64,000 bases of DNA from assembly GCF_963921235.1 (NCBI RefSeq), contig NC_086107.1, forward strand, positions 116,748,001 to 116,812,000, given 5' to 3'. A program made the translations under genes and the position numbers. Below are positions 948 through 51,682 of the stretch, piece after piece. Below the pieces are notes generated by a model. It had not been told where the DNA came from. It did no database searches and worked only from the letters and a program-made list of their open reading frames with translations. Position 1 is the first letter of the stretch. Every line of letters starts with the position of its first letter. The stretch comes from Mobula hypostoma. Lineage: Eukaryota.

Positions 948-1289
948 GATGTCTCCAGTAGTGGCATAGACTGTGATCCAATAGCACAGCATCAGTGAAA
1001 GGGACCTCATTTAGAAATGAGACAAGGAGGAATTTCCTCAGCTGTAAGGTGGTGATCAGTGGGATTCGTTGGCAAGGACAGCTGTGGAGGGCTGGTCATT
1101 GATGGTATTTAAGGCAGAGATTGATAGGTTCTTGATGGATAATGGGGGGAACAGAGAGGGTGGGAGAATGGGAATGGGTTAGAATGCATGAGCAGACAAT
1201 GGGCTGAATGGCCTCATTCTGCTCTGATATTGTGGATTACCAAGCCACTGGAAGGCCGAATGAAGGACTGAGGGAATGTCCTCTCCCCA

Positions 1290-1403
1290 TCAGCGGAGTT
1301 TGATCTCAAAGCAGATGCAGTTGGTGGTCTCACAGTCGGGCAGCTGGAAGGCACAGGCACAGTCACAGAGGGGGCAGCAAGGGCAGTTGCCCCGGCCACA
1401 GTC
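1290..1403 (-). CDS. Putative terminal coding exon of an unidentified Cys-rich protein (DCGRGNCPCCPLCDCACAFQLPDCETTNCICFEIKLR*)
   Basis: Polypyrimidine tract plus CAG acceptor at 1404-1406, open frame to TGA at 1290-1292, 10 Cys in 37 aa, non-repetitive DNA. Confidence 0.7.
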   Translation of the reverse strand, partial: DCGRGNCPCCPLCDCACAFQLPDCETTNCICFEIKLR

Positions 1404-2196
1404 CTGGGGAGGGAGGCAGAGAATGAAAAGTTACAGTAAGGAAATCTGCAGAGTGCTGCTGGGGAGACAAGGAGACGATGGGAGTGATGAAGTGGAGACG
1501 GAGACAGAAGATGACAGAGATGGTGAAACAAGGAAGAGACAGGACACGCGGGAAATGGGGTCAGGTGGGGATACGGGGGAGGGCAGGGAGATGAGGGGGA
1601 GACAGGAGTCGGGGTAAGAGGAGACAAGTAAAGACGAGAGATGGGATGTGACAGGGTGAGACAAGCAAGAGACAGGAGACAGATGGGTGAAGACAGTAGA
1701 TGGGGATGGGGGGTGATGAGGAAGAGACAGGGCACAGGATAAAGGGACAGACAGTGGGGAGACAGGAGATGGGGGGGAGTGGTACAGATTCACTGGTGGG
1801 AGGTGGGAGATGGGAAATGGGTGAAGGTGGGAGATTGGAGATGGGGAGACGGGAATTGGTGAGACAAGAGAGAGACAAAACACACCTTGAGAAAGGAGCA
1901 GGCAATCACGAGACATGGAGATGTTGCGGGGGTGTGGGCAAGGACAACACTGGGTGAAGGTGGAGAGATGGGAAATGGGGGTAAAGAGGGGAGATGGGAG
2001 ATGGGGAGAAAGATGCAGACGGTGGGGAGATGGGAGAAAGGGACAGACAGTGGGGAGATGGGAGAAAGATGCAGACGGTGGGGAGATGGGAGAAAGGGAC
2101 AGACAGTGGGGAGATGGGAGAAAGAGGCAGACGGTGGGGAGATGGGAGACAGGAGCCAGGGAAGATGTTCCGGGGATGGGTGTGGTGGAGACTTAC

Positions 2197-2328
2197 CAGT
2201 GACTGACGCGTTAGTCTGAGAGTGGGCAGATGGCAGTCACAACTCTGGGCCAGGGTCAGCAGACATTGGCCACACAGACCGTCCTCAACCAGACCCCCGC
2301 AGTCGCTCTCCCCACACAACCCTCATGC
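2197..2328 (-). CDS. Putative upstream exon of the same Cys-rich gene (..LCGESDCGGLVEDGLCGQCLLTLAQSCDCHLPTLRLTRQSL), with an in-frame TGA at codon 2
   Basis: CTAAC branch-like motif, ctctctgtAG acceptor, CTG|GTAAGT donor; phase 0 joins in frame to 1403; 6 Cys. Confidence 0.55.
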
Positions 2329-3083
2329 CTACAGAGAGGGGGTAGTGTTAGTGTGCAACCCCCCACTCCACCCCTCAATTATCCTTTAACGCACACCCAC
2401 TCTTAACCCATCTCCACCTTCAACTCCTCCACCAGCCCTCCTCTAACCCCTCTCAGCTCCACCCCACCCCTCCTCCTCTCCCATCACCCCTTAATCATCA
2501 CTACCACTCAATCAATCCATCCCCTCAACTCTCTACCTCCCTTCCTTCTCTTCATTCACCCTCCCTACCCTTCTCCAGCCGTCCAGCCCCCCACCCCTCT
2601 CCCTTCCCTCCTCCCCATCCTCCTTTCCTTTCCTGCTCTTCCCAACTTACTTCTCCTAACCCACTCTCATTCCCCACCCTGATCCACCCAATCCCTCAGT
2701 TAACCAGTCCGAACCAACCATAACTACTAGCCCACACTGCCATTAACCAGGGGTGAACCCCTGAGAACTGGGACAATTCTAGACCCAACATTGACTTGAT
2801 CAAAGCGATTAACTGGGCCAATCCATTGACTAGTGCTCACACACCATCAACCAGGATAATTCCTCAGTTAATAAAAGCAAGGATGCTGTAGGCCTTGTTT
2901 ACCACCCTGTCAAAGCTCCAGCAAGTAACTGTGGACTTGGACCCCAAGATCCCTTTGTACATCAACATCTCAGAGAATTTAATCTGGGCTTAGAAATTGC
3001 ACCAATGAAAGCACAAAGAAGGCATGCCAACTTCTTTACTTCAAGAGGATGTCCAGTTGTCATGAAACACACCAACATCACCA

Positions 3084-6695: not shown

Positions 6696-7539
6696 GTTTG
6701 TGACAATACACCAAATTCAGCATCAGTAACAGCTTGTACAACTTCAACATAACATCCCATCTCCTGTAGTCAGTACTTTGATTTATGAAGGTCTATGTGG
6801 CAAAAGCTTTCTTTACGACCCTACCTACCGGTGAAGTCACTTTCAATGAATAATGCACCAGTATTCCCAGACCCTTTTGTTCCACCACACTCCTCAGTGC
6901 CCTACTTACTGTCTAAGTCCTACACTGGTTTGCCCCCCCCCCCCAATACTGATAACTTACAGAATTTTTTAATGTGTTGCACTGTACTGCTGCCACAAAA
7001 CAACAAATTTCAAGACAATTATCAGTGATAATAAACTGATTCTAAGTTCCAATAAAATAATAAACATGATTAGGTCAGAGAGTGAGGTCATGTTCATGGA
7101 CTCAATGTCCATTAAGAAATCTAATGGACCAGGAGAAGAAGATGTTCCTGAATCACTGAGTGTGGGGTCTACATCCTCCCAGTTAAAAAGGAAAGAGGGC
7201 ATGGGGATGTCACCAATGGGACACTGCCTGTTGAAGGTGTCCTCAGTGCTGGGGAGACTGTTGCCCATGATGGAGCTGCCTGTCTGCAGCTTTTTCCGAT
7301 CCTGTGAATTGGAGCCTCCATACCAGACGGTGATACAAACAGCTCTCTGGAGTGGCAGTGGGAGAGAAAGCAGAGAGTGAGGAAAGAGGAGGAACACAGG
7401 AAAGGAGACAGTGTAGGAAAGAGAACGATGAGGAGGAGGGTAGGGAGAGAGGGAAGGAGTGATTAAGGAGGGGCTTGGTTGGGAGAGGGGTTGAGGGAGA
7501 AGTGGAGGGGTGAGGTTCAGGGGGACGGGACAATGTGGG

Positions 7540-7910
7540 ACCAAAGACTCCTGCAACATCCGCCCAATGGCATTAGCAAGAGAGGGAGACACCAGTTTGT
7601 TGTCCGCTCTCGGGTCTCTGCTTAATCTGGCATTGTTTTCTGCTGTCGCGCATCACTGCAATCTCCGCCCCCAGTTACGGTTGTACCTGCCAAGTTCGCC
7701 AAATCCTTCAGATCAAAATCCCCAGTTCGTTTGCTTTAAAAGTACATGTCTTAAAGAGAATTAAAGGGTGCAGGGTGCAGTGACTGTAGTTCAGAAGGAT
7801 ATGTAGCAAGTACCTGGTAGCTCCGTGAGCAGCCCGCCCAATGTCACCGTTTGTTGTCAGTGCCGTCTTTTACGGACGTTCGTTCGTTTTGTGCCGTGTC
7901 TTTCTAGGGC
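7540..7910. promoter_or_regulatory. Candidate CpG-enriched promoter
   Basis: Unique, locally CpG-rich sequence with two CCGCCCAAT motifs (about 7560 and 7835), a GC box CTCCGCCCC (about 7663) and MYB-like CAGTTA/CGGTTG (about 7672-7683). Confidence 0.45.
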
Positions 7911-7959
7911 CAGGGCACAGTTAACGATAGGACCGTCAACAGTATTGACGTACAGATGG

Positions 7960-9630
7960 ATCCTGAAAATGGCCGCACGGGTTGACAGGCATACTTTATT
8001 AGTCGAGGCACCGAGTTCAAAAGTCAGCAAGTTATGTTGCAGCTTTTAAAAACTCTAGTCAGGCCACATCTGGGGCATTGAATTCAGTTCTGGTCGCCCT
8101 ATTACAGGAAGGGTGTGGGGTTTTCGAGAACATGCTGCCTGGATTACAAGGCATGAGCTGTAAGCAGAGGCTGGACAAACTTGGTTGGTTTTCTCTGGAG
8201 CAGCGGATGCTGAGGGGAGATCTGATTGAGGTTTATAAGATCACGAGAGGCACAGATAGAGAACTGGTATCTTTATCCCCAGACTGGAAAGGTCTAAAGC
8301 AGAGGGCATACATAAGATGTGTGTCTGTGGGGGATAAGTTCAAAGGAGATGCCTGGGATAAGTTTATTTTTTTTTACATAGGAGGTCGAGGGTTCAAGAG
8401 GCTGTTAAACACATGGATGTGGAGGGATAGATAGTTATAGACTGTGTAGATAGTGTCTACACGGTAAACGGAAAGGATTAGTTTTGTAAGCTGTTTACTT
8501 AATAGTTTAATGAGTTTGTCACAATATGATGAGCGGAAAGGCCTATTCCTCTCTGCGTTTTGTGTAAGTGAGAGGTAACGGAGAGGATAGTGATGAAAAC
8601 ATTTGATGCCCTTGACTTTTGTAAACTGAGACAGTACAGAAGTTGGGATGTCACTTTGTAGCTGTATACAACATTGGTTGGACCACACTTAAAGAATATT
8701 GTGTACAGTTCTGCTCGCTCCATTACAGGAAGGATGTGGTAGCAACCAAGAGGGTGTAGAATATGTTGTATTAAATGGAAATGTATAATCATAAAACAGA
8801 TCTGTAGTTTCCCACAGAAGGCAGAAGGTGGAGGTTGGTGGTAGATCAAGAGTATTCTGCCCGGAGGTTAGTGACCAGTGGTGTTCCAGTGTCTGTTTCG
8901 AGACCACTGCCCTTTGTGACTTAGAAATGATTTGTATGAGCAAGTGGAAGGGTGGATTAGTAAATCTGCAGATAGCACAAAGGTTGGTGGTGTTGTAGAG
9001 TGTATAATGCTGTCATACGTTACAACAGAACATAGATTTGATGCAGAGCTGGGCTGAGATGAGGTAAATGGAGTTCAATACAGAAAAGTGTGATATGATA
9101 CAGCCTGGAAGGTCGAACTTGAATCCCAGCAGTGTGGAATAACAGAGGGATCTTGAGAACAGCCATAGATCCTTCAAAATTGTTGCACAAGTTGATAGCA
9201 TGGTTAAGATGTAACAGTCTGGGAATGGAGTTGAAAAGCCACAAGGTAATGATGCAGCTCTTTAAAATGCTTGTTAGACCATACTTGGAAGATTGTGTTC
9301 AGTTCTGGTCAGATTATAGGAAGGATGATGAAGCGTTAAGAGAAGGTGCAGAGATTTACCAGGATTACAGAGCATGTCATGAGGAAAGATTGAGCAAGAT
9401 AGGGCTTTTCTCTTTGGAGCAAAGGAGGATGAGAAGAGAATTGATAGAGGTATACAAGATAATGAGGGAGAGGGAGAGGGAGAGGGAGAGAGAGAAAGAA
9501 AAAACAGTCTGCACATTTTTCTCAGGGCGGCAATGGCCAAAATAAGAGGACACTTTTAAGGCAATTGAAGCAGAGGTAGAGGGAGATCCTTGGAGACATT
9601 TAGGCTACTCTGAGAAAGACACATGGATAG
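7960..9630 (+). mobile_element. Degraded CR1 fragments
   Basis: LGWFSLEQRMLRGDLIEVYK, LVRPYLEDCVQFWS and similar remnants with many stops. Confidence 0.8.
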
Positions 9631-21818: not shown

Positions 21819-22028
21819 TCACTCAGGGATATCGATGACTAGGTCATCATCACCATCGATGGGCTCATCCTCACTGCCTTCACCAGTGGTGCTAAACATC
21901 TGATGGGGGACAGTGCTGAGGATGGTGGCAGGAGGCAGCTTGGATGAGAGGGCAGGGAGAGGGTCCGGGGGGCCTGAGAACGGGAGGCTCACAGAACCCG
22001 GGGGGCTGGAACGTAGTGAGGCTGGAAG
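21819..22028 (-). CDS. INO80E: INO80E last coding exon ([11 protein letters not shown]...[17 protein letters not shown]...[12 protein letters not shown])
   Basis: CAG acceptor at 22029-22031, TGA at 21819-21821; diagnostic C-terminus TILSTVP.QMFS...[12 protein letters not shown]. Confidence 0.96.
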
Positions 22029-22059
22029 CTGGGGGTTGAGGTGTAGGGAGTGAGAGAGA

Positions 22060-22640
22060 GTGGGGCAGGAGACGGGGGAAAACAGGGCAGGGGATGGGGG
22101 AAAACAGGGTAGGGGACGGGGGAGACGGGGCAGGGAACGAGTGGGGTAGGGGACGGGGAGATGGGGCAGGGGATGAGTGGGGTAGGGGACGGGGAGATGG
22201 GGCAGGGGACGAGTGGGGTAGGGGACGGGGAGATGGGGCAGGGGACGGGGAGATGGGGCAGGGGACGAGTGGGGTAGGGGCAGGGGACGAGTGGGGTAGG
22301 GGCAGGGGAGACGGGGCAGGGGACGAGTGGGGTAGGGGATGGGGAGACGGGGCAGGGGACGGGGAGACGGGGCAGGGGATGGGGGAGACGGGGCAGGGGA
22401 CGGGGAGACGGGGCAGGGGACGGGGAGACGGGGCAGGGGACGGGGAGACGGGGCAGGGAACGAGTGGGGTAGGAGACGGGGAGGTGAGGTGGGGGTAGGA
22501 GACGGGGAGGTGAGGTGGGGGTAGGAGACGGGGAGGTGAGGTGGGGTGGGGTGAGGTGAGGTGGGGTGGGGTGAGGTGAGGTGAGGTGGGGTGGGGGGAG
22601 GTGAGGTGGGGTGGGGGTGGGAGACGGGGAGGTGGGGGGA
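22060..22640 (+). repeat. G-rich tandem repeat in the last INO80E intron (GGGGACGGGGAGAYGGGGCA / GAGTGGGGTA / GGTGA units)
   Basis: Directly visible. Confidence 0.9.
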
Positions 22641-23486
22641 AGGAGAGAGAGAGACACACACATAGAATTAAAGAACATCTGTACTCGCTCACAGAACACA
22701 ATGTCACTGAGAATCAGTGGTGCAGCTGAGGCACCTCATTTCCCCCTATTCTTTTACTTTGCCTGTGTCCCACTCAACCCTCCCAATCTCTATGTGTCCT
22801 TCATTCCTGCTCCCCTACTATACCCATTTCTGTCCCCACCATCCCGTCTCCTTCCCCACTCCTCTCAATGACCATACTCTCTCCTCCTCCCGAACCCCTT
22901 CCTCTTCCACATCACTTCCTCTCTCCCCACCCCCCGTACTCTACTCCACTCCGCCCTCATTCCTTCTCCACCATTCCCCACTCCACCCTCATTCCCTCTC
23001 CATCCCCTCCCTCATTCCCCCTCCACCCTCATTCCCTCTCCACCCCCTCCCTCATTCCCTCTCCACCCCTCCACCCTCATTCCTCCACCTTCATTCCCTC
23101 ACCACCCTCCACCCTCACTCCCTATCTCTCCTACTACCACGCTCTGAATTGTCTTTCCTCCCTGGTCTCACTCCCTTCCCCTCCTTCCTCCCAACCCTAT
23201 CTCAACTCTCTTTGCCCTCTCCCTACATCTCCCTCCCTCATTCAAGTCTCACCTATCCTCAACTTATCCTCTCTCCATTCCTCACCCTCCTTCACACTCT
23301 TCTTCCCTTGTTCCTGACTCTCTTTCTTCAAATTACTTTATCCCTCCATCTTTCCCACACACTCCCCCACCCAAACATTCTCTCTGGACCCTTTCAACTT
23401 GTCCCCACTCCCCTTGTCTCTCCATCCCTCACCTACTTGATCCTCCCTCCCTCACCCCTCAGTCCCTCCCACCCTCTCCAGCCTAC

Positions 23487-23648
23487 CTTGCACCTCTTGC
23501 CTTTGGGGGGCTTGCCTCTCTTCTCACGTTTGCCCCGGTCGCCACGAGTGCAGGGGAGGGGGCCGGTGGGGGTTGCAGGGGCTCCCTGGGGATCTGCATA
23601 CGCGGAGAGGTACTCACTGGGGAACTGGGTGAAGTTTGGCGAGCCCAC
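23487..23648 (-). CDS. INO80E: INO80E coding exon 6 (VGSPNFTQFPSEYLSAYADPQG...GKREKRGKPPKGKRCK)
   Basis: CAG acceptor, GTAGG donor, 162 nt, phase 0 to 0; FPSEYL and KREKR motifs correspond to mammalian FPSDYL...KREKR. Confidence 0.9.
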
Positions 23649-23845
23649 CTGTCAATAACACATGGGGGTGAGTGCAGGAACAGACGGGGAGAGGGGATAT
23701 GGGGCGTGGGGTGGGGGGGGGGCGGATGATGGCGTTAGGGACAGAGGGACGTTGGGACAGACAGTGTTGGGGTTTAAGTGTGGGACAGATGGACAGGTGG
23801 AGAGATGGGGGAAAAGAGATTGGTGGCAGACGTTTCTGTACTCAC

Positions 23846-23969
23846 CGTGCCGAGGTAAGGGGATTGTGTTGGGGTGGTACTCCGTGATGCTGGGTACCCT
23901 AGGCTGGGCTGCAGCGACAGGGAAGTGGGTGATGTTGATGCTGAACCCCCGAGCGGTGGACTCCTCTTC
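23846..23969 (-). CDS. INO80E: INO80E coding exon 5 (KKRSPPLGGSASTSPTSLSLQPSLGYPASRSTTPTQSPYLGT)
   Basis: CAG acceptor, GTGAG donor, 124 nt, phase 2 to 0; KRSPPLGG and SPYL motifs. Confidence 0.95.
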
Positions 23970-24109
23970 CTGGGAGGGGTGGAATAGACCCTGGTCAGTG
24001 AACAGGGAAGTATCAGGGAGGGAATCTCTCCACTCACATGGCTATCTTAGCGGTATCTCTCACTCACACACACACAGAACAGGTATCTCTCTGTCTTTTG
24101 CTCTCTCAT

Positions 24110-27100
24110 ACGCACACGGTCATGCACTTTAGTAGAAGAAATAAATGTGCAGACTATTTACTAAATTGGGAGAAAGTACAAAAAGCTGAGATGCAAACGG
24201 GGCTAGGGAGTGCTTGGGAGATGGTGGTAGCTGGGGGCTGAATGTCCATGGTTACACATTATATCGGAGGGATAGGAAGGTAGGCAGAGGGGGTGGCGTG
24301 GCTCTACTGGTAAAGACTGGCATCAAATCAGTAGAAAGATGTGACACAGGATCAGATTATGTTGTGGGTTGAGTTAAGAAACTGCAAGGGTAAAAGGACC
24401 CTAATGGCAATGTATACAGGGCCTGCCAACAGTGGCTGGGAGGTGGACCACAGGTTACAACAGGAAATACAAAAAGGCGTGTTGAAAGGGCAATGTTAAG
24501 GTAGTCATGGGAGATTTTAACATGTAGGGCAATTGGGAAAGTCAGGTTGGTAATGGATCTCAAGAGAGTGAGTTTTGTTGAATGCCTAAGAGATGGCTTT
24601 TCAGAGCAGTTTGTCGTTGAGCCTACTAGGGGATCAGCTATACTGGAATGGGTGTTATGTAATGAACCAGAGGTGATTAGGGAGCTTTAAGTAAAAGAAC
24701 CCTCAGGAACTAGTGATCACAATATGATTGAGTTCAACTTGAAATTTGATAGGGAGAAAGTAAAGTCTGATGTAGCAGTATTTCAGTGAAGTAAGGAAAT
24801 TACAGTGGTATGAGAGGAGTGGGCATGTGGCCAAGTGGTTAAGGCATTGGATTAGCGACCTGAAGGTCGTGAGTTCGAACCCTAGCCGAGGGAGTGTATT
24901 GTGTCCTTGAGCAAGGCACTTAATCACACGTTGCTCTGTGACAACACTGGTGCCAAGCTGTATGGGTCCTAGTGCTCTTCCCGTGGACAACATTGGTGTC
25001 GTGGGGAGGGGCGACTTGCAGCATGGGCAACTACTGGTCTTCCATACAACCTTGCCCAGGCCTGCGCCCTGGAGAGTGAAGACTTTCCAGGTGCAGATCC
25101 ATGGTCTCGCAAGAATAACGGATGCCTTTTTATGAGAGAAGAGTTGGCCAAAGTAAACTGTAAGGCGCTGCTGGCAGGGGTGTCAGCAGAGCAGCAATGG
25201 CGTGCGTTTCTGGGGAAATGAAGGGGCAGGACAGGTGTATTCCAAAAATGAAGAAATACTCAAATGGCAAAATACAACCATGGCTGACAAAGGAAGTCAA
25301 AGCTAATGTAGAAATAAAAGAGAGGGCATACAATAAAGCAAAAATTAGTGGGAAGATAGAGGATTGGGAAGTTTTTAAAAACCTATAGACAGCAACAAAA
25401 AAAAAATCATTAGAAGGTAAAATTGAAATATGAAAGCAAGCTAGCAAATAATATCAAAGTGGATAGTAAAAGTTTTTTCAAGTATGTTAAAAATGAAAGA
25501 GAAATGAGAGTGGATATAGAACTGCTAGACAATGAGGCAGGAGAAATAATAACGTGGTACAAGGAGACGGCTGAGGAACTAAAAGTATTTTGCATCAATC
25601 TTCACTGTGGAAGACACTAGCAGTATGCCTGATGTTGTAGTGTGTGAAGGAAGAGAAGTGGGTGCAGTTACTGTTACTAGAGAGAAGGTGCTCAAAAAGC
25701 TGAAAGACCTAAAGTCACGTGGACCAGATGAACTGCACCCTAGGGTTCCGAAAGAGGTAGCGTTACAGATTGTGGTGGCATTAGAAATAATCTTTTAGAA
25801 ATCATTGGACTCTGGCATGGTGCCAGAGGACTGGAAAATTGCAAATGTTACTCCACTGTTTAAGGACGAGGCAGCAGAAAGGAAATTATAGAGCCAATCG
25901 TTAAGGATGAGGTGATGGAGTACTTGGTGACACAGGACAAGATAGTACAAAGTCAGCATGGTTTCCTTCAGGGAAAATCCTGCCTGACGAACCTGTTGGA
26001 ATTCTTTAAGGAGATTACAAGTAGGATAGATGAAGGGGATTCAGTGGATGTTAAATATTTGGACTTTCAGAATGCCTTTGACAAGGTGCCACACGTGAGG
26101 CTGCTTACCAAGTTAAGAGCCCATGGCATTACAGGAAAGTTACTAACATGGTTAGAGCATTTGCTGATTGGTAGGAGGCAGCGAGAGGGATTAAAAGGAT
26201 CCTTTTCTGGTTGGCTGCCAGTGATGTTCCATGGGGGTCAGTGATGGGACCACTTCCTTTTATGCTGTTTCTAAATGATTTAGATGGAATAGATGGTTTT
26301 GTCGCCAAGTTTGGAGATGATACGAAGAGTGGTAGAGGGGCAGGTAGTGTTGAGGAAAGAGGTAGGATGCAGAAGGACTTAAAACAGATCAGGAGAATGG
26401 GCAAGAAAGTGGCAAATAAAATACAATGTTGAAAAATGCATGGTCATGCACTTTGGAAGTAGAAATAAGTGTGTCGACTATTTTCTAAACAGGGAGAAAA
26501 TCCAGGAATCTGAGATGCAGAGGGAGTTGGGTGTCCTTCTGCAGAACACCCTGAAGGTTAACTTGCAGGTTGAGGAAGGCAAATGCCATGTTAGCACTCA
26601 TATCAAGAGGTCTAGAATACAAGAGCAAAGATGTGATGCTGAGGCTTTATAAAGCACTGGTGAGGTCTCACCTTGAGTACTTTAGGCTCCTCATCTTAGA
26701 AAAGGAGAACACTGGCATTGGAGAGGGTTCAGCAGAGGTTCACAAGGATGATTCCAGGAATGAAAGGGTTATCATATAAGGAACGGTTGATGGCTCTGGG
26801 TCTGTACTCGCTGGAATTCAGAAAGATGAGGTGGAATCTCATTAAAACCTTTTGAATGTTGAAAGGCCTAGACAGAGTAAGTGTGGAAAGTATATTTCCC
26901 ATGGTGGGAATGTCTAGGACAAGAGGGCACAGGCTCAGGATAGAGGGATGCCCTTTCAAAACAGAGATGCGGAGAAATTTCTTTAGCCAAAGGGTGGTGA
27001 ATTTGTGGAATTCGAGGCCAGGTCGTTGGGTGTATTTAAGGCAGATATTGATAGGTTCTTGATTGGATATGGCATCAAAGGCCGAGAACTGGGGTTGAAG

Positions 27101-27195
27101 AGGAGAGGAAAAAAAAAAGAATCAGCCATGATGAAATGGCGTGGCAGACCTGATGGGCCAGACGGCACAATTCTGCCCCAATGTCTTATGGTCTA
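24110..27195 (+). mobile_element. Long degraded CR1 LINE, endonuclease through 3' end
   Basis: PWLTKEVK, GPDELHPRVPKE, QHGFLQGKSCLTNLLEFF, LDFQNAFDKVPH, RNFFSQRVVNLWNS. Confidence 0.9.
24817..25130 (+). mobile_element. tRNA-derived SINE with CORE-like central domain
   Basis: A box TGGCCAAGTGG, B box GTTCGAACC, central GTGTCCTTGAGCAAGGCACTTAA; TSD TATGAGAG at 24809-24816 and 25131-25138. Confidence 0.85.
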
Positions 27196-27799
27196 ATTGC
27201 CTTCTCGCCATATCCTTTAGAAAGTACAGTTGAGGTTCGGCAGGACTCTTTTCCATAGATGATGCTGCCTGGCCTGCTGCTCCTCTAGCATTTTGTGCGT
27301 GTTGCTCAGATTTCCAGCATCTGCAGATTTTCTTGTTTGCCAAATCCCTTGATGCCCCGACTGATAAAGAAATGATCATCTTACACCTTAAATATATGCA
27401 CGACTTGGCCTCCGCCAGTCTGTGGCAGAGCATTCCACAGATTTACTACTCTCTGGCTAAAAAAATTCCTCCTTACCTCTGTTCTAAAAGATCGCCCCTC
27501 AATTTTGAGGCTCTGCCCTCTAGTTCTGGAACCCCCATGAAAGGAAACATCCTCTCCACAACCATCCTATCTAGTCCTTACAACATTTGGATACGAATTT
27601 GTTTAATTTGTTACCACAGGCAGCTGTGGAGGCCAGGCTGTTGGGTGTATTTAAGGCAGAGCTTGAATGGACACGGCATTAAAAGTTGCGGGGAGAAGGC
27701 CAGGGAGTGGGGCTGAAGAGGGGAAAAAAAGGATCAGCCGTCATGAAATGGTGTAGACTTGATGGGCCAAATGCCCCAATTCTACTGCTATGTCATATA

Positions 27800-28629
27800 G
27801 TCACAACACACACAGACAGTAGAGTCTCTATTACACACGTCTCTCCGTCTGTCACAGTACAGGCATCTCTCTCACACAGTACAAGTATTATAAGTATCTC
27901 TCTCAAACACACACACACAGACAGTACAGGTATCTCTCTCACACACAGAGTACTGGTCTCTCTCTCATACACATACACACACACACACCCACACGTGTGT
28001 CCCTCTCTCTCACAGTACAGGTATCTCTCTCACACACAGAGTACTGGTATCTCTATACGACACCACCTATCAGCTCCTTACAATGAAGGCCTAACCTCGC
28101 TACCCACAGTCCTAACCCTGGCATCTCCACAACAGTTCACACTTCTATTTTTGCAAAGGTAAGACTAAAGACCCTCTCATTACCTCGCACACACAGTACA
28201 GGTATCCTTCTCTCTCTCTCACACACAAACAGTACAGATATCTCTCACTCACACACAATACAGGTATTTCTCTCTCTCTGTTCTCACACATGCAAACAGA
28301 ACAGGTATCTCTCACACACACACACAGTATAAGCATCGCGCGCACACACACAGCACAGATATCACTCACACAGACACAGTGCCATCATCTCACAAATATT
28401 ACAGGTATTTCTCTCTCACACGCACACAGCACAGGAATCCCTCTCACATACACACACAGTACGGTTAACTCTCTCATTCACACCATACAGATCTCTCTCG
28501 CAATCTCACACCGTACAGGTCTCTCACACATGCACACAGTACGGGTATCTCACACACGCACACACATACACACACAGGCATCAGTCTCTCTCTCTCACAC
28601 ACGCACACACATACACACACAGGCATCAG

Positions 28630-28662
<33 letters not shown>

Positions 28663-28695
28663 AGTATCAGTCTCTCACACACACACAGGCATCAG

Positions 28696-28731
<36 letters not shown>

Positions 28732-29410
28732 ACCCCTATCTGTCTCTCTCTCACACACACCCGTATCAAACACAGGTATCAGTCTCACACACACACACAC
28801 AGCCATCTGTCCCAGACACACAGCCATCTGTCTCTCACACACACACACACACACATACACAGGTATCAGTCACACACACACCCATGCATCAGACACACAT
28901 AAACACGTATCAGACCGACACACACACAGAGGCACCAGACTCTCTCACACACACGCAGTCGCATACACACAAAGAAAGACAGACGTATGAAATATCAGTC
29001 GCACACACACACACAGGTATCTGTCTCACACACACAGCCACAGCTATCAGACACACACAGAGACACAGGTATCAGTCTATCAACACACACATATCAGGTA
29101 TCAGTCACACACACACACACACACACACAGCCATCTGCCACACAGGTATCAGTCTCTCACACACACACACACACAGCTGTCTGTTACATATATGCAGGTA
29201 TCAGTCTCACACACACACAGGCATTAGTCAAGCACGCAGCTATCCTGTCTCACGTGCTCACACAGCTATGTGTCTACACACACACACACACAGGTATCAG
29301 TCATACACCCACATGCACACAGAGCTATCTGTCTCACGTACACACAGGACTCTGTTTCACACAAACACACACAGATCTGACATGCACACAGGACTCTGTC
29401 ACACACACAC
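27800..29410. repeat. Degenerate (CA)n/(CT)n-based tandem array (CAGGTATCAGTCTCTCACACACA-like units)
   Basis: Directly visible. Confidence 0.9.
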
Positions 29411-29585
29411 ACCTGCCTGCTCCACCCTTTCTATTTCCACATCTCCCTCCCTCTCAGTGTGAGGGCACCTGCTCTGCCTCTGCCATACCTAGCCTGGATA
29501 TCTACAACCCTGACCGCTAACCCTCCCCATTACCACCTTTATTGCAGTGGGTCCCTCCCAGCTGCTCCCCTCTCGTGGGACTCAC

Positions 29586-29661
29586 TTCTTTTGTAGTGGA
29601 GTGTCGAGGAGCTTGGGACCGTCAGGCTCGCTGTTCTCAGATGAGGCTGTGGCATCCGAAT
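29586..29661 (-). CDS. INO80E: INO80E coding exon 4 (DSDATASSENSEPDGPKLLDTPLQK)
   Basis: CAG acceptor, GTGAG donor, 76 nt, phase 1 to 2; DSDATASS motif conserved. Confidence 0.95.
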
Positions 29662-29831
29662 CTGAGTGAGGAACAATAAGAGGGATTCCTGACCTCACAA
29701 TCTACGTGGTTATGATCTTACACTCTTTGTGTGCAGTGCACTTTCCCTCTAGCTGCACTCTGTTATTATTTTCCCTTGTTCTACCTCAATGCACTGTGTA
29801 ATGATCTGATCGGCAGGAGCAGTAGCCACCA

Positions 29832-31038
29832 TAAGCTTATACCAGTACCCAAGAAGAGTACTGTGAGCTCCCTTAATGACTATCGTCCAGTAGTACTCAA
29901 ATCCACAGTGATGAAATGCTTTGACAGGTTGGTCACAGCTACAATCAACTCCTGCCGCAGCAAGGACCTGGACCAACTGCAATTTGTCTATCGCCACAAA
30001 AGATCTATGGCAGACACAATCTCAATGGCTCTTCACACGTCCTTATATCACCCGGACAATACAGACACTCCCACGTCAGGATGCTGTTCATTGACCATAG
30101 CTCAGCGTTTAACACCATCATTGCTATAATCCTGATTGATAAGCTACAGAGTCTGGGCCTCTGTACCTTCCTCTGTAGCTGGATCCTCCACTTCCTAATA
30201 GGGACACCACATAGTGCGGATTGGTAATAATAGCTCCTCCTTGCTGACGATCAACACTAGAGTACCTCAGGGGTGTATGCTTACGTTAGTGCTCTACTCC
30301 CTCTATACCCATGTCTAAGTGGTGATAGCTCAAATACCATCTATAAATTTGCTGATGATACAACCGTTGCTGGTGGGAGAGGGAGAGGGCGCACAGGAGT
30401 GAGATATGCCAGCTAGTCGAATGGTGCTGCAGCTACAACCTTGCACTCAACGTCAGTTAGACCAAAGAGCCGACGGTGGACTTCAGAAAAGGCAGGAAGA
30501 GGGAACACAAACCAATCCTCATAGAGGGATCAGATGTGAAGAGAGTGATGGATTTCAACTTCCTGGCTGTCGAGATCTCTGAGGATCCAACCTGGTCCCA
30601 ACATCGATGCAGCTATAAAGACGGGAAGACAGCAGCTGTATTTCATTAGCAGTTTGAAGAAATTGCGTTCACCTAAAACACTTGGAAACTTCTACAGATG
30701 TAACATGGAGAGCATTCTGACAGGCTGCATTGCTATGTGGTATGGGGGGGGGGTGCTACTGCACAGGATCAAAAGAAGCTACATAAAGTTGTAAAACTAG
30801 TCAGCTCCACTTTGGGTATTCGCCTCTGTAGTATCCAAGAGATGTCCATGGAGTGGTGCCTCAGAAAGACAGTGTTCATTATTAATAACCCAATCACCCA
30901 GTACACGCATCTTCTCTTACCGTAATTGATTGATTGATTTATTTTCTCTATATTATCATGTATTGCATAGTACTGCTGCTGCTGCTAAGTTAACAAATTT
31001 CACAAACTTATGCCAGTAATATGAAACCAGATTCTGAC
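29832..31038 (+). mobile_element. Degraded Rex1/Babar LINE
   Basis: [20 protein letters not shown]...[15 protein letters not shown] and a CAGATTCTGA tail. Confidence 0.85.
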
Positions 31039-31264
31039 TTATCTTTGTCTTTGGTCACTAAGCTGTTCGAAAGGTGACATTACATTGGAACAGGTGCAGA
31101 AAAGATTTATGGGAATGTTACCAGGACTGAAGGACTTAAATTATAAGGAAGACATTTGTCCCTGGATGGTAAGAGGTTGAGGGGCGACCTTATTAAATCC
31201 TGAGGGGAATACATGAGGGATGACGTGGAAAGTCACAGGGTAGGGGAGCATAAAACTCAAGGTA

Positions 31265-31500
31265 TACACTCAGTGGTAAACACTTATTAGGTACTTAGTA
31301 CTAAGTGGCCATTGAGTGTATGTTTGTGGTCTGCTGCTGTAGCCCATCCACTTCAAGTTTGATATCTTGTGCGTTCAGAGATGTTCTTCTGCATAACATT
31401 GTTGAAATGTACAAACTTGGCAACAGAGCCATTAGCTCCGTCAAACAAATCATTAATCCTTATTGAGGATCTCACCCATTTTCTTGCCTCCACACCAAGG
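31265..31500. mobile_element. Probable Tc1/mariner-derived MITE remnant
   Basis: Short TA-flanked inverted ends TACACTCAGTGG...CCATTGAGTGTA at 31265-31320. Confidence 0.45.
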
Positions 31501-31619
31501 AGTCCACTTTGATCTTTGAGGGTCTCTCTCTCTCTCTCCTTCTTCCCTGACAATTTCTTTAATTTGCAGATTCATCACAGTAAAAGGCCTTTGCAGTACA
31601 ATGAGCCTGGGTTGCCTAT

Positions 31620-31797
31620 TTACACCCTTGCGAGTCTGTGGAATGTGGAAGGAAATCGGAGCATCCCAGAGGAAACCCAGATCGTCACAGGAAGAATGCA
31701 CAAGCTCCTTACAAGAGGCAGTTTGAATGTTTGAACTTGGGTTGCTGGTTGCTGGTGCTGTAAAGCATTATGCTAACCACTATGCTACCGTGTCACC
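31620..31797 (-). mobile_element. V-SINE (HE1-like) fragment
   Basis: The minus strand has a tRNA-like head CACGGTAGCATAGTGGTTAGC and a V-domain-like GGGTTTCCTCTGGGATGCTCCGATTTCCTTCCACATTCCA. Confidence 0.75.
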
Positions 31798-32552
31798 CTT
31801 TGGGCATTCTCCCTAATCTTCTCTGCTAAAACTATTCCGTGCCAGGTCTTATCCTTGTTGCTGGAATTAGAGGGCTTGAGCTATAAGGAAAAACTTGGGT
31901 AGTTTTCTCTGGAAAGGCCGAGGCTGAGGTGAGATCTGATAGAGACTGATAAGATAATGAAAGGTACAGATAGAATAGAGAGTTGGTATCTTTTCCCCCG
32001 CAGAGTAGAAATGCCTAATACCAGAGGGCATGTATTTAAGGTCATAGAGGGGAGCTCAAAGATCCAGGGGGAACTGGATAACTGGCTTGACGGTGGGAAG
32101 CAGAGGGTAGGGTAGGGGCAGCAGGTTGTTTCTGGGACTAGAGGCCTGTGTCTGGTGGTATTCCTCTGGGCTCAGTACTGGGCCTATTGCTGCTTTTTCA
32201 TTTCTATGCACAAGATGCTTGTTGAGTATTGCATTCAGTTTTGATCGCCCTGCTGTAGGATAGATACCATGAAGCTGGAAAGAGTGCAGAGGAGACTTAC
32301 AAGGATGTTAGGATTTGAGGGAGGTTGGGCAGGTTAACTTTATTCCTTGGAGCACAGGAGACTGAGGGTGACCTTACAGACATGTATAGAGGGGCACAGA
32401 TAGGATGAATGCACAGTCTTTTCACCCAGTGTTAAGGAATCAGGAACTGGAAGGGACAGGTTTAAAGTGAGAGGGGAGAGATTTAAAAGGGACTTGAGGG
32501 GCAATATTTTTCCACACAGAGGTTGGCAAGTTTATGGAACGGGCTGCCAAAT

Positions 32553-34255
32553 GAAACATAGAAAACCTACCGCACAATACAAACCCTTCGGCCCATAATG
32601 CTGTGCTGAACACGCACTTACTTTAGAAATTACCTAGGGTTACTCATAACCCTTTAGTTTTCTAAGTTCCATGTACCTATCCAGGAGTCTCTTAAAAGAC
32701 CCTATTGTATCTGCCTTAACCACAGTTGCCAGCAGCCCATTCCACGCACTCACCACTCTCTGCGTAAAAAACTTACCCCAGACGTCTCCTCTGTACCTAC
32801 TTCCAAGCACTTTAATACTGTGCCCTCTTGTGTTAGCCATTTCAGCCCTGGGAAAAGGCCTCTGACTATCCACATGATCAATGCCTCTCATCATCTTATA
32901 CACCTCTATCAGGTCACCTCTCATCCTCCGTCGCTCCAAGGAGAAAAGGCCAAGTTCACTCAAACTATTCTCATAAGGCATGCTCCCCAATCCAGGTAAC
33001 ATCCTTGTAAGTCTCCTCTGCATCCTTTCTATAGTCTCCACATCCTTCCTGTAGTGAAGTGATCAGATCTGAGCACGGTACTGCAAGTGGGGTCTGACCA
33101 GGGTCCTATATAGCTGCAACTTTACCTCTCGGCTCTTAAACTCAATTGCATGGTTGATGGAAGGCCAATGTACCATATGCCTTCTTAACCACAGAGTCAA
33201 GCTGTGCAGCAGCTTTGAGTGTCCGATGGACTCAGACCCCAAGATCCCTCTGATTCTCCATACTGCCAAGAATCTTACCATTAATACTATATTCTGCCTA
33301 CCAAAATAAACGGATGAGGAGTTTGGAGAAGGACATAAAGATACAGAAGGCACTGGCATGAAGGGCTATGAACAACATGAAGGAAATCTGGAAGTTGAAC
33401 CTGACCAGAGGGCTTAAAAAGAGGATCTTCATAGCAGTCATAGAGTTCATTCTCATGTACGGATGCGAGACCTGAACACTCACCAAGACTATGCGAAAGT
33501 CTCTAGATGGCTGCTATACACGAATGCTCCGGCTGGCTCTTGACGTGAGTTGGCAACAGCACATGTCGAACGTCGAGCTCCATGACGACCTACCAATGCT
33601 CACCACTAAAATTGAGGCGAGAAGACTGCAACTAGCGGGGCACTGTCTACACCACCCCAAGCTACCTGCCAGCCTAGTCATCATATGGGAGTCCAAGCAT
33701 GGGAGAATGAACCCTGGGCGCCCTCCCAAGACTATGGTCAACATGGTCCTAAAAGATAGCGGCACAGCTAATATAGATGAACTGAACACACTGATGAGGG
33801 AGAGGGAGAAGTGGAGAGTCCGTCATTGTGCCCGACGCCGGCCCCCTAGGCCTGAGTCGACATAGTAGTAAAATGAACCACTTCACACTTATCTGCCACT
33901 TCTCAGCCCAGTTTTGCATCCTATCGATGGCCCACTGCAACCTCTGACAGCCCTCCACATTATACACACCTCCAACCTTTGTGTCATCATCAAATTTACT
34001 AAACCATCCATCCCTCCACTTCCTCATCCAGATTATTTACAAAAATCATGAAGAGAAGTGGTCCCAGAACAGATCCCCAAGGCACACCACTGGTCACCGA
34101 CCACCATGCAGAATATGACCTGTCTACAACCACTCTTTGCCTTTTGTGGGTGAGCCAATTCTGGATCCACAAAGCAAGGTCCCATTGGATCCCATGCCTC
34201 CTTACTTTCTCAATAAGCCTTGCTGAAATCCATATACACTACATCTACTGCTCTA
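32553..34255 (-). mobile_element. CR1 LINE fragment interrupted by an RTE
   Basis: YMDFSKA, KFDDDTKVGG, RRRMRGDLIEVYK...FFTQRVVSAWNGL; TTTCTATGTTT tail. Confidence 0.9.
33312..33869 (+). mobile_element. RTE-clade LINE 3' fragment
   Basis: LDGCYTRMLRLALDVSWQQH...RRLQLAGHC...GRPPKT; (TAG)n tail; imperfect TSD AAAAT(A/G)AAC. Confidence 0.85.
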
Positions 34256-35803
34256 CCGGGACCTAATGGTCTGCATCCCAGGGTACTTAAGGAGGTGACT
34301 TTAGAAATCGTGGACCCATTGGTAATCATTTTCCAATGTTCTATAGATTCAGGATCAGTTCCTGTGGATTGGAGGGTGGCTAATGTTGTCCCTCTCTTCA
34401 AGAAGGGAGGAAGAGAGAAAACAGGGAATTATAGACCGGTTAGCCTGACGTTGGTGGTGGGAAAGATGCTGGAGTCAATTATAAAAGATGAAATTATGAC
34501 ACATCTGGATAGCAGCAACAGGATTGGTCCAAGTCAGCATGGATTTATGAAGGGGAAATCGTGCTTGACTAATCTTCTGGAATTTTTTGAGGATGTAACT
34601 ATGAAAATGGACAAGGGAGAGCCAGTGGATGTAGTGTACCTGGACTTTCAGAAAGCCTTTGATGAAGTCCCACATAGGAGATTAGTGGGCAAAATTAGGG
34701 CACATGGTATTGGGGGCAGAGTACTGACGTGGATTGAAAATTGGCTGGCTGACAGAAAACAAAGAGTAGCGATTAACGGATTCCTTTCGGAATGACAGGC
34801 GGTGACCAGTGGGGTACCGCAGGGTTCAGTGCTGGGACCGCAGCTGTTTACAATATATATTAATGATTTAGATGAGGGAATTGGAAGTAACATTTGCAAA
34901 TTTGCTGATGACACAAAGCTGGGAGGCAGTGTGAAATGTGAGGAGGATGTTATGAGAATGCAGGGTGACTTGGACAGGCTGGGTGAGTGGGCAGATGCAG
35001 TTTAATGTGGATAAGTGTGAGGCTATCCACTTCGGTGGTAAGAACGAGAAGGCAGATTATTATCTAAATGGAGTCAAGTTAAGAAAAGGGGAAGCACTAT
35101 GAGATCTAGGTGTTCTTGTACATCAGTCACTGAAAGCAAGCATGCAGGTACAGCAGGCAGTGAAGAAAGCTAATGGCGTGCTGGCCTTCATAACAAGGGG
35201 AATTGAGTATAAGAGCAAAGAGGTCCTTCTGCAGCTGTACAGGGCCCTGGTGAGACCACACCTAGAGTACTGTGTGCAGTTTTGGTCTCCAAATTTGAGG
35301 AAGGACATTCTTGCTATTGAGGGAGTGCAGCGTAGGTTCACAAGGTTAATTCCTGGGATGGCGGGACTGTCATATGTTGAAAGATTGGAGCGACTGGGCG
35401 TGGAAACACTGGAATTTAGAAGGCTGAGAGGGGATCTTATTGAAACATATAAGATTATTAAGGAATTGGACACGCTGCAGGCAGGAAGCATGTTCCCACT
35501 GATGGGTGAGTCCAGAACCAGAGGTCACAGTTTAAGAATTAGGGGTAGGCCATTTAGAACGGAGTTGAGGAAAAACTTTTTCACCCAGAGAGTGGTGGAT
35601 ATATGGAATGCTCTGGCAATGGAGGCCAAGTCTCTGGATGCTTTCAAAAAAGAGATGGATAGAGCTCTTAAAAATAGTGGAATCAAAGGTTATGGGGATA
35701 AGGCAGGAACTGGATACTGATAGTGGATGATCAGCCATGATCACAGTGAATGGCGGTGCTGGCTCGAAGGGCCGAATGGCCTACTCCTGCACCTATTGTC
35801 TAT
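34256..35803 (+). mobile_element. CR1 LINE, RT domain to 3' end, few lesions
   Basis: ORFs 34220-34795, 34802-35005 and 35142-35720 carry canonical CR1 RT motifs. Confidence 0.95.
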
Positions 35804-36736
35804 TACCTTCACAGGAAGTTGATGAGACAACTACAAGAGTATCGCTGAAGAAGCACTTGAACAGGAACATGGGAGCCAGGATCTTAGAAGGATATGGGCT
35901 AAATGTAGGAAGTTGGGACAAGCTGGGTGGGCACTGTGGTTGGCATGGAATTGATAGGCCAAAGGGCCTGTATCTGTGCTGTGATGTTATTGCTCTATAG
36001 CTGGATGATCAGAACTTCACTAAATACTCCAAAACAGCCTCCACCACTTTGCCCCAAACATCTCCTTTGAACTTCCCCCCTCTCACCTTATATTCGTACT
36101 GGACATTTCCACCCTGGGGAGAAGGATACCAACTGCCTACTCTATGTATGCCTCCTGTAACATTTTAAACTCCTACCAGGTCTCCTCTCAGCCTCCACCA
36201 CTGCAAGGAAAACAACTCGTTTGTCTGACTGCTTCTCATAACTGAGGCTCTCTAATCCAAGCAGCATTCTGGTGAACCTGCCCCTCTCAAATCCTCTCTA
36301 AATCGCTTCTCTCTTCCGTAAAATTTGTCCCTCTGGCGTCTCTCTAGACTTTGAACACCTCTATAAGGTCATCCCTCAGCCTCCTTCACTCCAGGGAAAA
36401 CAGACCCAGCCTGCCCAGTCTCCCATTAACTCATTCCCTCCAGTCCTGGTGACAAGCTGGTGTATTTATTCTGCACCCTCTCCAGCATAATCCCAACCTG
36501 GGTAAGAAGAACTGAACACAATACTCCAGCGTGACCTCGCCCATGTCTTGTACAACTGCAACATAACGTCCCATTTCCTGTACCCAGTCTCCTGACTGAT
36601 GAAGTCCACTGTGCCAATGATTTCTTCACCACCCAGTCCACTTGTGATGCCACTTTCACACTTTCAGGGAGCTTTGCAATTGTACTCTTGGGTCCCTTTG
36701 TTCCACAGGACAATGGAGAGGAAAACAGTTACTTAC

Positions 36737-36789
36737 CAGAGGAATCATCGTTGACATTCTCGTACTCAAGTAATCGATCCAGAAGGAAG
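36737..36789 (-). CDS. INO80E: INO80E coding exon 3 (SFLLDRLLEYENVNDDSS)
   Basis: CAG acceptor, GTAAGT donor, 53 nt, phase 2 to 1; contains the conserved SFLLDRLL motif. Confidence 0.96.
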
Positions 36790-37044
36790 CTGAGTGTTGG
36801 GAAATAAAAGGGGAGGGTGTGGGGTAGAGAAAAAGATTGTTCATCTTCAAATTGGCATTGGTAATTGATTCTCTATGGTCACTTGTACCGACATACAATG
36901 CATGGCATCTAGCCAGAAATCAGATGCACCATAGAAAGAACCCTATCTGGATACATTGTGGCTTGGTACAGCAACTGTTCTGCCCGTGACTGCAAAAAAC
37001 CACAGAGAATTGTGGACATAACTCAGCACATAGTATACAGAATA

Positions 37045-40000: not shown

Positions 40001-40790
40001 CTGTATTCTGCTATTATATTTGACCTACCAAAATGAACCACCTCACACTTATTTGGGTTGAACTCCATCTGCCACTTCTCAGGCCAGTTTTGTATCCTAT
40101 CGATGTCCCGCTGTAACCTCTGACAGCCCACCCTACTATCCACACACCCACAACCCATCCCTCCACTTCCTCATCCAGGTCATTTATAAAAATCATGAAG
40201 AGTAGGGGTCCCAGAACAGATCCCTGAGGCACACCACTGGTGATGGACCTCCGTGCAGAATATGACCCATCTACAACCACTCTTTGCTTTCTGTCGGCAA
40301 GCCAATTCTGGATCCACAAAGCAAGGTCCTCTTGGACTTACTTTCTCAATAAGCCTTGCATCGGGTACCTTATCAAATGCCTTGCTGAAATCCATATACA
40401 CTACATCTACTGCTCTACCTTCATCAAGAGGTCTTGAAATTTGGAAATGTTACTCCACTCTTTAAAAAGAGAGGCAAAGAGGCAGAATAAAGGAAATTAT
40501 AGGTCAGTTAGTCTGCCTTAAGTGATTGGGAGGATGTTGGAGTCCATTATTATAGATGAAGTTTCATGGTATTCAGAGACTCACGATAAAATAGGCAAAT
40601 GTCAGCATGGTTTCCTTAAGGGGTAACCTTGCCTGACAAATCTGTTGAGGAAATAACAGGTAGGATAGACAAAGGAGTGTCAGTATACGTTGTGTACTCG
40701 GATTTTCAGAAGGTCTCATTTCAAAAGATGTTACACATGAGGCTACTTAACAAGATAAGAGTCCATGGTATTACAGGAAAGATACTAGCA
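37045..40790 (+). mobile_element. Degraded CR1 hosting nested insertions (Penelope-like about 37350-37445, Rex1 37611-38541, minus-strand CR1 about 39270-40425)
   Basis: Collinear CR1 ORF2 remnants (KSPGPDGLHPKVPKE and others) resume after each insert. Confidence 0.8.
37611..38541 (+). mobile_element. Rex1/Babar LINE 3' fragment with open frame
   Basis: ORF 37600-38331 FADDTTIVGRIS...FKFLGV...FKNSFFPSAIRFLN; AAACCTGATTCT tail; GAATT on both sides. Confidence 0.92.
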
Positions 40791-41648: not shown

Positions 41649-41719
41649 CTTTTGTCCCGAGACACTTTAATGAATTTTCTCTGGGCCTTGCGGAGTTCCA
41701 GCTGGAAGCATTCCTGTTC
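41649..41719 (-). CDS. INO80E: INO80E coding exon 2 ([23 protein letters not shown])
   Basis: CAG acceptor, GTGAC donor, 71 nt, phase 0 to 2; matches [24 protein letters not shown]. Confidence 0.96.
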
Positions 41720-43185: not shown

Positions 43186-43339
43186 TTTAGATAAACATTT
43201 GTCATTGTATGTATGATCAATGTCTGTTTTGTCCTGTTACCTCGGGCACTCAGTTTAGATAAATATTTGTAACCAAGCATAACTCGAACTTGCATCGCCC
43301 TCCATTCCCCATGTATCCATGATCCATTCCCTGCATGTT

Positions 43340-45733: not shown

Positions 45734-45747
45734 TCTTATAGGACCCT

Positions 45748-50450: not shown

Positions 50451-50523
50451 ACATCTCCCTTCCACCACACCCCTACCTCTCATTCCTCCCCCAACATGAC
50501 TCCCACCCCTTCCCCACATGCCT

Positions 50524-51548: not shown

Positions 51549-51682
51549 CCTTCATTCCTCTCTCCCTCCATCCTCACTACCTCCTCACACCTCATCATCG
51601 CGCCCTTCCCCGCTTAGCCGTCTACATTCACTCCCATAACCTCCCGCTCCCCATCATCCACTGTTCCACCCTCCGTCCTCAC

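What the first reader, a model, noticed from the sequence alone, without database searches (positions are those of the whole stretch)
1290..2328. Unrecognised spliced gene for a small, extremely Cys-rich protein downstream of INO80E
Seen: two unique-sequence exons with strong splice signals (2328-2197 and 1403-1290, minus) join in phase to give LCGESDCGGLVEDGLCGQCLLTLAQSCDCHLPTLRLTRQSL|DCGRGNCPCCPLCDCACAFQLPDCETTNCICFEIKLR*, with 16 Cys in 78 aa and CxC, CC and CxxC motifs. The last exon's frame is absent from the ORF track. I cannot assign a family. Inference: a metal-binding (metallothionein-like) or palmitoylated (I-mfa/MDFI-like) module; both resemblances are compositional only.
Basis: partly seen in the sequence, partly recalled or inferred. 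Interest (0 to 1): 0.75.

Follow-up and report, generated by a model that had tools for sequence, protein, structure and literature searches.

The report
Unstudied 16p11.2 membrane gene, decayed exon

Summary
Half right. The exon at 1403-1290 is real: its 37 residues equal the end of RefSeq XP_062919498.1 (Mobula, si:ch211-198p11.6), the orthologue of human LOC112694756 near INO80E and ALDOA. The gene is annotated, not unrecognised, and is not a 78-aa peptide: the protein is 143 aa with one membrane helix and a Cys-rich tail.

It keeps both orthologous splice sites but has TGA at codon 2, 7 differences in 37 codons and five codons fewer. That intact exon and the membrane exon are absent from all 64 kb, which is unexplained.

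The family has no Pfam match, no solved relative and no functional paper in my searches, yet reaches molluscs, chelicerates, nematodes and a ctenophore. Charge bias and glycosylation sites put the tail in the cytosol. It is most likely a multiply palmitoylated membrane adaptor; metal binding is the rival. It is not a metallothionein, I-mfa protein or selenoprotein.

The parts
1290..1403 (-). Terminal coding exon (37 aa + TGA) of the LOC112694756 / si:ch211-198p11.6 orthologue
   Evidence: 37 of 37 identical to P0003; spliced contigs in 4 of 4 runs
1001..1289 (-). 3' untranslated region; its end lies further left and was not mapped
   Evidence: Contigs continuous with the exon reach 1110, 1107, 1005 and 1001 in the four runs (table 8)
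1404..2196 (-). Pyrimidine-rich intron between the decayed exon copy and the terminal exon
   Evidence: GT..AG borders; low-depth unspliced contigs in X1, X2, X5; 28/56-nt tandem repeat at 1996-2153
2197..2328 (-). Decayed duplicate of exon 2 (pseudo-exon): orthologous acceptor and donor kept, 44 codons against 49, 6 Cys against 9
   Evidence: 13 or 14 other letters against the expressed exon plus 30-34 replaced letters in all 4 runs
2323..2325 (-). In-frame TGA at codon 2, where intact ray proteins have Arg or Gln (not Cys)
2329..2353 (-). Branch-point-like CACTAAC, pyrimidine tract and AG of the exon copy
   Evidence: Sequence; the branch-point consensus is recalled
7501..8200 (.). CpG-rich unique segment, possibly this gene's promoter (untested)
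   Evidence: CpG observed/expected up to 0.91 against a window median of 0.32
21819..51757 (-). INO80E, the syntenic upstream neighbour on the same strand
   Evidence: PF24237 on two exons, E 3.7e-4 (below the curated cut-off) and 3.4e-8; exon positions; the last exon has no Pfam hit and rests on a recalled motif

Best explanation
The exon at 1403-1290 is the expressed last exon of the ray orthologue of human LOC112694756, whose product is a small single-pass membrane protein that likely has its Cys-rich tail in the cytosol, is likely multiply S-palmitoylated there, and likely works as a membrane-anchored adaptor or auxiliary subunit. Shown: orthology, splicing of the last exon to an intact exon 2, the decay of the copy at 2328-2197, and family range from a ctenophore to mammals. 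Predicted: one helix at residues 31-59 and no signal peptide, with the short N-terminus outside. Inferred: two amphipathic Cys-bearing helices (about 76-87 and 92-102) lie on the inner membrane face once acylated, and the conserved last strand (C-F-E-I-K-L-R pattern) pairs with a partner's beta-sheet. The exon at 2328-2197 arose by duplication of exon 2, decayed, and is skipped; if it were included, its TGA would truncate the protein and likely trigger nonsense-mediated decay.
For: Identity: (45% to the macaque protein, E 1e-32). Synteny: INO80E in the window and the human order INO80E, DOC2A, C16orf92, TLCD3B, LOC112694756, ALDOA (PMC11354020, passages); 5 of 10 longer hits are models fused to aldolase. 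Splicing: 4 of 4 runs. Decay: 30 of the first 37 codons identical, while intact ray exons differ by 1-2 of 49; the copy lacks the segment with C102, kept in 76 of 78 members. Topology: C side more positive in 70 of 84, equal in 11, less in 3 (15 of 99 rows dropped); 25 N-terminal sequons against 15.0 +/- 3.4 in shuffles, 2 of 500. Cys within 12 residues of the helix end in 73 of 78; helical and strand periodicity beat all 500 shuffles. AlphaFold is confident on the membrane helix only.
Against: No acylation, location or partner data exist here. The tail has pLDDT under 50, which fits a metal-dependent fold equally well. P0003 itself has no charge difference across the helix and no sequon, and Trp at the juxtamembrane column where 44 of 78 members have Cys. 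Family members are related, so the shuffle counts are not independent trials. All runs are contigs flagged 'RNA?'. Exon 1 and the intact exon 2 are not in the window, so the cis layout is inferred.
Confidence: 0.5

Rival explanations
1. Same gene and topology, but the cytosolic tail binds Zn or Cu clusters and acts as a membrane-tethered metal buffer or sensor.
For: 19 Cys in 91 tail residues with CxC, CC and CxxC motifs; median 21 Cys in the first 100 tail residues; C121, C130, C135, C137 kept in 61 of 70, 60 of 69, 63 of 72, 65 of 72; no confident apo fold.
Against: No column is invariant in 78 sequences and Cys counts run from 8 to 29; the tail has 12 Leu, 2 Phe, 1 Trp and only 2 Lys; no metallothionein or zinc-finger family among the Pfam matches. 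Acylation and metal binding could split the tail between them.
Confidence: 0.27
2. Reverse topology: the Cys-rich part faces the lumen or outside and forms a disulfide-bonded domain.
For: High, partly patterned Cys content; P0003 alone shows no charge bias.
Against: Family charge bias 70 to 3, and sequons enriched in the N-terminus but not in the tail (74 against 67.5 +/- 6.8); variable Cys number.
Confidence: 0.08
3. The decayed exon is kept as a regulated poison exon that lowers the gene's output by nonsense-mediated decay.
For: Both splice sites are near consensus; the stop lies 126 nt before the last junction; in X5 (organism B) the two contigs over the copy have 1 and 2 differences in 98 and 188 letters, against 6-10 in intron contigs of 186-238 letters.
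Against: No joint to either site in 4 runs, and unspliced contigs cross its borders in 3 of 4; the intron pieces are low-complexity and change fast; numbers are small.
Confidence: 0.12
4. The window holds a 5'-truncated second copy (decayed exon 2 plus exon 3), and the transcripts come from an intact copy elsewhere.
For: Exon 1 and intact exon 2 are absent from 64 kb that hold all of INO80E upstream; all 4 runs differ from the window at 1188 while six intron-side contigs of X1 and X2 show 0 differences.
Against: Exon 3 plus UTR differs from X1 and X2 by only 3 letters in about 295 but from X5 by 9 in 376, although organism B also has the copy beside exon 3; an old dead copy should have drifted further. 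A misjoin or deleted haplotype (about 0.55) or a long intron spanning INO80E (about 0.25) are my other estimates.
Confidence: 0.2
5. One reading: a free 78-aa Cys-rich peptide encoded by these two exons, or a selenoprotein reading the TGA.
For: Strong splice signals and an in-phase join.
Against: No start codon in frame after the stop; no junction in 4 runs; the TGA aligns to Arg/Gln; 0 Rfam matches in 1-24000.
Confidence: 0.02

Closest known systems
Human LOC112694756 / zebrafish si:ch211-198p11.6 family (RefSeq XP_062919498.1, XP_072106224.1, XP_059809309.1)
   Same: Terminal exon 36-37 of 37 identical to the ray proteins; 45% to macaque over 139 aa; same exon-2 borders; INO80E upstream on the same strand.
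   Different: The window carries a decayed exon-2 duplicate and lacks exon 1 and the intact exon 2; DOC2A, C16orf92 and TLCD3B, which lie between the two genes in human, were not searched for here.
MDFIC / I-mfa domain proteins (PMC12940486, passages: a multi-lipidated auxiliary subunit of Piezo1)
   Same: Working model: Cys-rich amphipathic segments that are lipidated and dock on a membrane partner.
   Different: No sequence match in Pfam or PDB searches; this family has its own membrane helix, which MDFIC lacks (recalled).
Metallothioneins
   Same: High Cys content with CxC, CC, CxxC motifs; no stable apo fold predicted.
   Different: Membrane helix, aromatic and many aliphatic residues, few Lys, no Pfam match.
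Type III palmitoylated transmembrane adaptors such as LAT and PAG (recalled)
   Same: Short outer N-terminus, no signal peptide, basic residue and Cys just inside the membrane.
   Different: The ray tail has no Tyr; it is about 21% Cys.

Membership tests
LOC112694756 / si:ch211-198p11.6 | Significant full-length similarity to named members | tested here: met
   atlas feature score 0.96
LOC112694756 / si:ch211-198p11.6 | Conserved C-terminal C..C-x4-NCxCFEIKLR exon | tested here: met
LOC112694756 / si:ch211-198p11.6 | N-terminal membrane helix exon in cis | tested here: inconclusive
   Present in the RefSeq proteins and at the loose end of the X5 contig (read by hand); absent from the window
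LOC112694756 / si:ch211-198p11.6 | Synteny with INO80E | tested here: met
LOC112694756 / si:ch211-198p11.6 | ALDOA directly downstream | not testable with these tools
   The window ends 1.3 kb after the stop and no whole genome is held; shown only for mammalian models
Metallothionein | Soluble, no membrane helix, no aromatic residues (definition recalled) | tested here: not met
   Helix 31-59; Phe 2, Trp 1 in the tail
Metallothionein | Match to a metallothionein profile | tested here: not met
   None among the matches of 19 and 35 members at E up to 10
Metallothionein | Binds metal-thiolate clusters | not testable with these tools
   Needs biochemistry
I-mfa / MDFI | Match to the I-mfa domain in Pfam or to solved MDFIC chains | tested here: not met
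   that the libraries hold such entries is recalled, not checked
I-mfa / MDFI | Multiple S-acylation of an amphipathic helix | not testable with these tools
   Helical periodicity met; acylation untested
Selenoprotein | In-frame UGA at a Cys-homologous position | tested here: not met
   Aligns to Arg/Gln
Selenoprotein | SECIS in the 3' UTR | tested here: not met
   0 Rfam matches at gathering score in 1-24000
Keratin-associated proteins (automatic names of some hits) | Keratin-associated repeat profile, no membrane helix | tested here: not met
   No such Pfam match; the names appear to follow composition

The most novel reading that the evidence does not exclude
An animal-wide family of multiply lipidated single-pass auxiliary subunits, as old as ctenophores, whose human member is an overlooked dosage-affected gene of the 16p11.2 deletion/duplication interval hidden under ALDOA read-through models; in rays a duplicated exon has become a poison exon that tunes its level.
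Probability: 0.15. Interest if true: 0.75.

Novelty: already known. Interest (0 to 1): 0.4.

Why it matters
The gene is annotated, so this is no new gene. It still matters moderately. A protein kept from a ctenophore to mammals has no Pfam model, no solved relative and no functional paper in my ten searches, and its human copy lies in the 16p11.2 copy-number interval, where mammalian gene models fuse it to ALDOA. Expression and pathway tables that list it may therefore be counting ALDOA (inference). The topology and motif map make its function directly testable. The decayed exon is a clear example of exon duplication and decay, and a warning for gene prediction.

Tried and rejected
No whole genome is held, so exons 1-2 could not be located. 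Depth arithmetic leaves about 88 depth x letters unlisted in X5 at 2155-2231 and about 0 in the other three runs; X5 also has a contig starting at 2196. This could be a rare junction or a variant tip; no joint is listed, so it is not used as evidence. Pfam on the two exons and on P0003: 0 families; on members only scattered weak matches, best E 0.0053, none in more than 2 of 35. PDB by sequence: best E 5.1 and 0.23. Atlas, named clusters, tail only: no usable hit. AlphaFold tail pLDDT under 50 with 19 and 78 sequences, so no fold search was run. No complex prediction was run: no partner is claimed. A dilysine or PDZ-type end signal as the general role was rejected: in 22 of 43 members with the motif, 5 or more residues follow it. 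A four-residue likeness near 7830 to the N-terminus of P0005 was judged chance. Earlier findings: none near, by sequence, in the genome or in relatives; the 8 rows concern other genes. Paper searches with 0 hits. Two scripts failed and were rerun (53 as 56; the control part of 70 as 73).

Full report
1. Observation. Both segments exist on the minus strand with AG and GT borders and join in phase 0; the quoted residues hold 16 Cys. Codon 2 (2325-2323) is TGA in that frame, the only ATG there is in another frame that closes after 13 codons, and no Met follows in the Cys frame. The two exons therefore cannot give a free 78-aa protein from an AUG.

2. Identity. The terminal exon found one hit among one candidate in the longer-protein search: XP_062919498.1, si:ch211-198p11.6 of Mobula hypostoma, 143 aa. 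Its 90% cluster holds three ray proteins, and the exon matches them in 37, 36 and 36 of 37 residues. With P0003 as query, 25 of 51 candidates passed, from amphibians, reptiles and mammals; several are named 'LOC112694756 homolog', as is the best atlas cluster (0.96). P0003 and the macaque protein are 45% identical over 139 residues, E 1e-32. INO80E lies upstream on the same strand, 51757 to 21819. The human order is INO80E, DOC2A, C16orf92, TLCD3B, LOC112694756, ALDOA (PMC11354020, table passages). Five of ten longer hits are mammalian models that fuse part of this gene to aldolase A.

3. Transcripts. Eleven runs hold the stretch, none on record as RNA; I laid four, all assembled contigs, from three organisms. 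In 4 of 4 a contig joins the terminal exon to a sequence that follows 2217-2329 with 13 or 14 other letters and has 30-34 different letters at the joint. Read by hand, the 34 letters of X1, X2 and X5 give the end of exon 2 of P0003, and the loose end in X5 gives the end of its membrane exon. The joint 2197/1403 is listed in none. Low-depth unspliced contigs cross the borders of 2328-2197 in three runs; these may be pre-mRNA or DNA. Contigs drop rare forms, so rare inclusion is not excluded.

4. The exon at 2328-2197 is a decayed duplicate. Its borders are the true exon-2 borders: a turtle and another vertebrate model skip exactly this exon (P0029, P0037), and the second isoform P0006 leaves the frame at its end. 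Against the intact ray exon it has 44 codons for 49, 30 of the first 37 identical, 6 Cys for 9, and TGA where the proteins have Arg or Gln. The intact exons of the three rays differ by only 1-2 of 49. The copy lacks the segment with C102, kept in 76 of 78 family members. A CpG change from an Arg codon would explain the stop (inference). Selenocysteine is rejected: the position is not a Cys column and Rfam finds nothing in 1-24000.

5. Unexplained. Neither the membrane exon nor the intact exon 2 is in the 64 kb: a pattern search (0 matches at 3 mismatches), tblastn and two family profiles on six frames (only the two known exons below E 0.3) agree. Exon 3 plus UTR differs from X1 and X2 in 3 of about 295 letters and from X5 in 9 of 376, while organism B also has the copy beside exon 3. 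So the window's exon 3 is probably the expressed one (inference). Against this, all four runs differ from the window at 1188, whereas six intron-side contigs of X1 and X2 show no difference. My estimates: misjoin or deleted haplotype 0.55, long intron spanning INO80E 0.25, second intact copy 0.2. A CpG-rich segment at 7501-8200 may be the promoter, and a 2.7-kb GC-rich array at 16558-19248 is a possible trouble spot; neither was tested.

6. The family. A vertebrate profile found 99 representatives at E up to 0.001 among 1.84 billion; a few are repeats or fragments. I looked up 20 of them: named ones include lamprey, hemichordate, spiders, horseshoe crab, argonaut, pearl oyster, two nematodes, an orthonectid and the ctenophore Mnemiopsis; 8 of the 20 clusters had no name. 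For nine distant members tested, the real score beat all 300 full and all 300 tail-only shuffles, and an invertebrate-only profile scored P0003 at 95 bits against at most 2 for shuffles. The ctenophore hit is weak (E 7e-4) but passes this control. Pfam gives no shared family and the PDB no significant relative.

7. How it likely works. AlphaFold is confident on one helix, 31-59, and not on the tail. Of 99 proteins examined, 84 were kept (15 dropped for length, no start Met or no clear helix); the C side of the helix is more positive in 70, equal in 11 and less in 3. N-glycosylation sequons are enriched in the short N-termini (25 against 15.0 +/- 3.4; 2 of 500 shuffles) but not in the tails. 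P0003 itself is neutral on both tests. This points to N outside and tail in the cytosol, where disulfides are unlikely (established knowledge). A Cys lies within 12 residues of the helix end in 73 of 78; segments 76-87 and 92-102 have helical periodicity, and 119-125 and 137-143 strand periodicity, each above all 500 shuffles (members are related, so these are not probabilities). No column is invariant and Cys numbers vary from 8 to 29. Cys just inside a membrane helix and on amphipathic helices are typical S-acylation sites (recalled). I commit to a multiply palmitoylated adaptor or auxiliary subunit whose last strand binds a partner (0.5), with metal binding as the main rival (0.27). Neither is shown.

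8. Comparison. It is a member of the LOC112694756 family. It may work like MDFIC, described as a multi-lipidated auxiliary subunit of Piezo1 (PMC12940486, passages), but shows no sequence link. It fails the metallothionein, selenoprotein and keratin-associated tests.

9. Literature. 'LOC112694756' is in 9 papers (listing); in the three whose passages I read it appears only in gene lists. 'ch211-198p11.6' is in none, nor are five orthologue identifiers. A recalled Ensembl identifier gave one table row. The recalled label AC093512.2 gave four papers; I read passages of three, and in one it stands between DOC2A and FAM57B, so the label is ambiguous and I draw nothing from it. None of 15 listed of 16 preprints on 16p11.2 and ALDOA uses the LOC name (passages of one read). 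Combined searches found nothing. I opened no supplements, and the library lacks most subscription papers, so palmitoyl-proteome or interaction tables could hold data on this protein.

10. Verdict. Novelty: already known as a gene model; interest 0.4 for the age of the family, its place in 16p11.2 and the testable mechanism.

Noticed in passing
window 7501-8200: Unique CpG-rich segment with GC-box-like words and a minus-strand donor-like site near 7813; may be the promoter or first non-coding exon of this gene or of a neighbour.
   Followed up: partly
window 16558-19248: 2.7-kb GC-rich tandem array of 25-30-nt units, giving three spurious minus-strand frames of about 1000 codons; possible assembly trouble spot.
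   Followed up: partly
window 3370-5401: Fragmented LINE with a reverse transcriptase match (PF00078, E 2.6e-11) about 1 kb upstream of the exon copy.
   Followed up: partly
window 21819-51757: Whole INO80E spread over 30 kb; nothing recognisable as HIRIP3 was seen by eye at 51800-54700.
   Followed up: no
window 2196-2225: In run X5 a contig starts at 2196 and a small depth remainder is unlisted there; may be a rare use of the copy's donor.
   Followed up: partly
window 52980-54650: Tandem array of about 30-nt units upstream of INO80E.
   Followed up: no
proteins P0155, P0156, P0158, P0160, P0161: Mammalian models fuse exons of this gene to aldolase A; real read-through or annotation artefact not tested.
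   Followed up: no
proteins P0029, P0037, P0085: Annotated isoforms that lack exon 2 and join the membrane exon to the last exon in frame, in a turtle and two other vertebrate-like records.
   Followed up: no
window 60233-61620: Broken open frames that look like another retroelement reverse transcriptase region (by eye).
   Followed up: no
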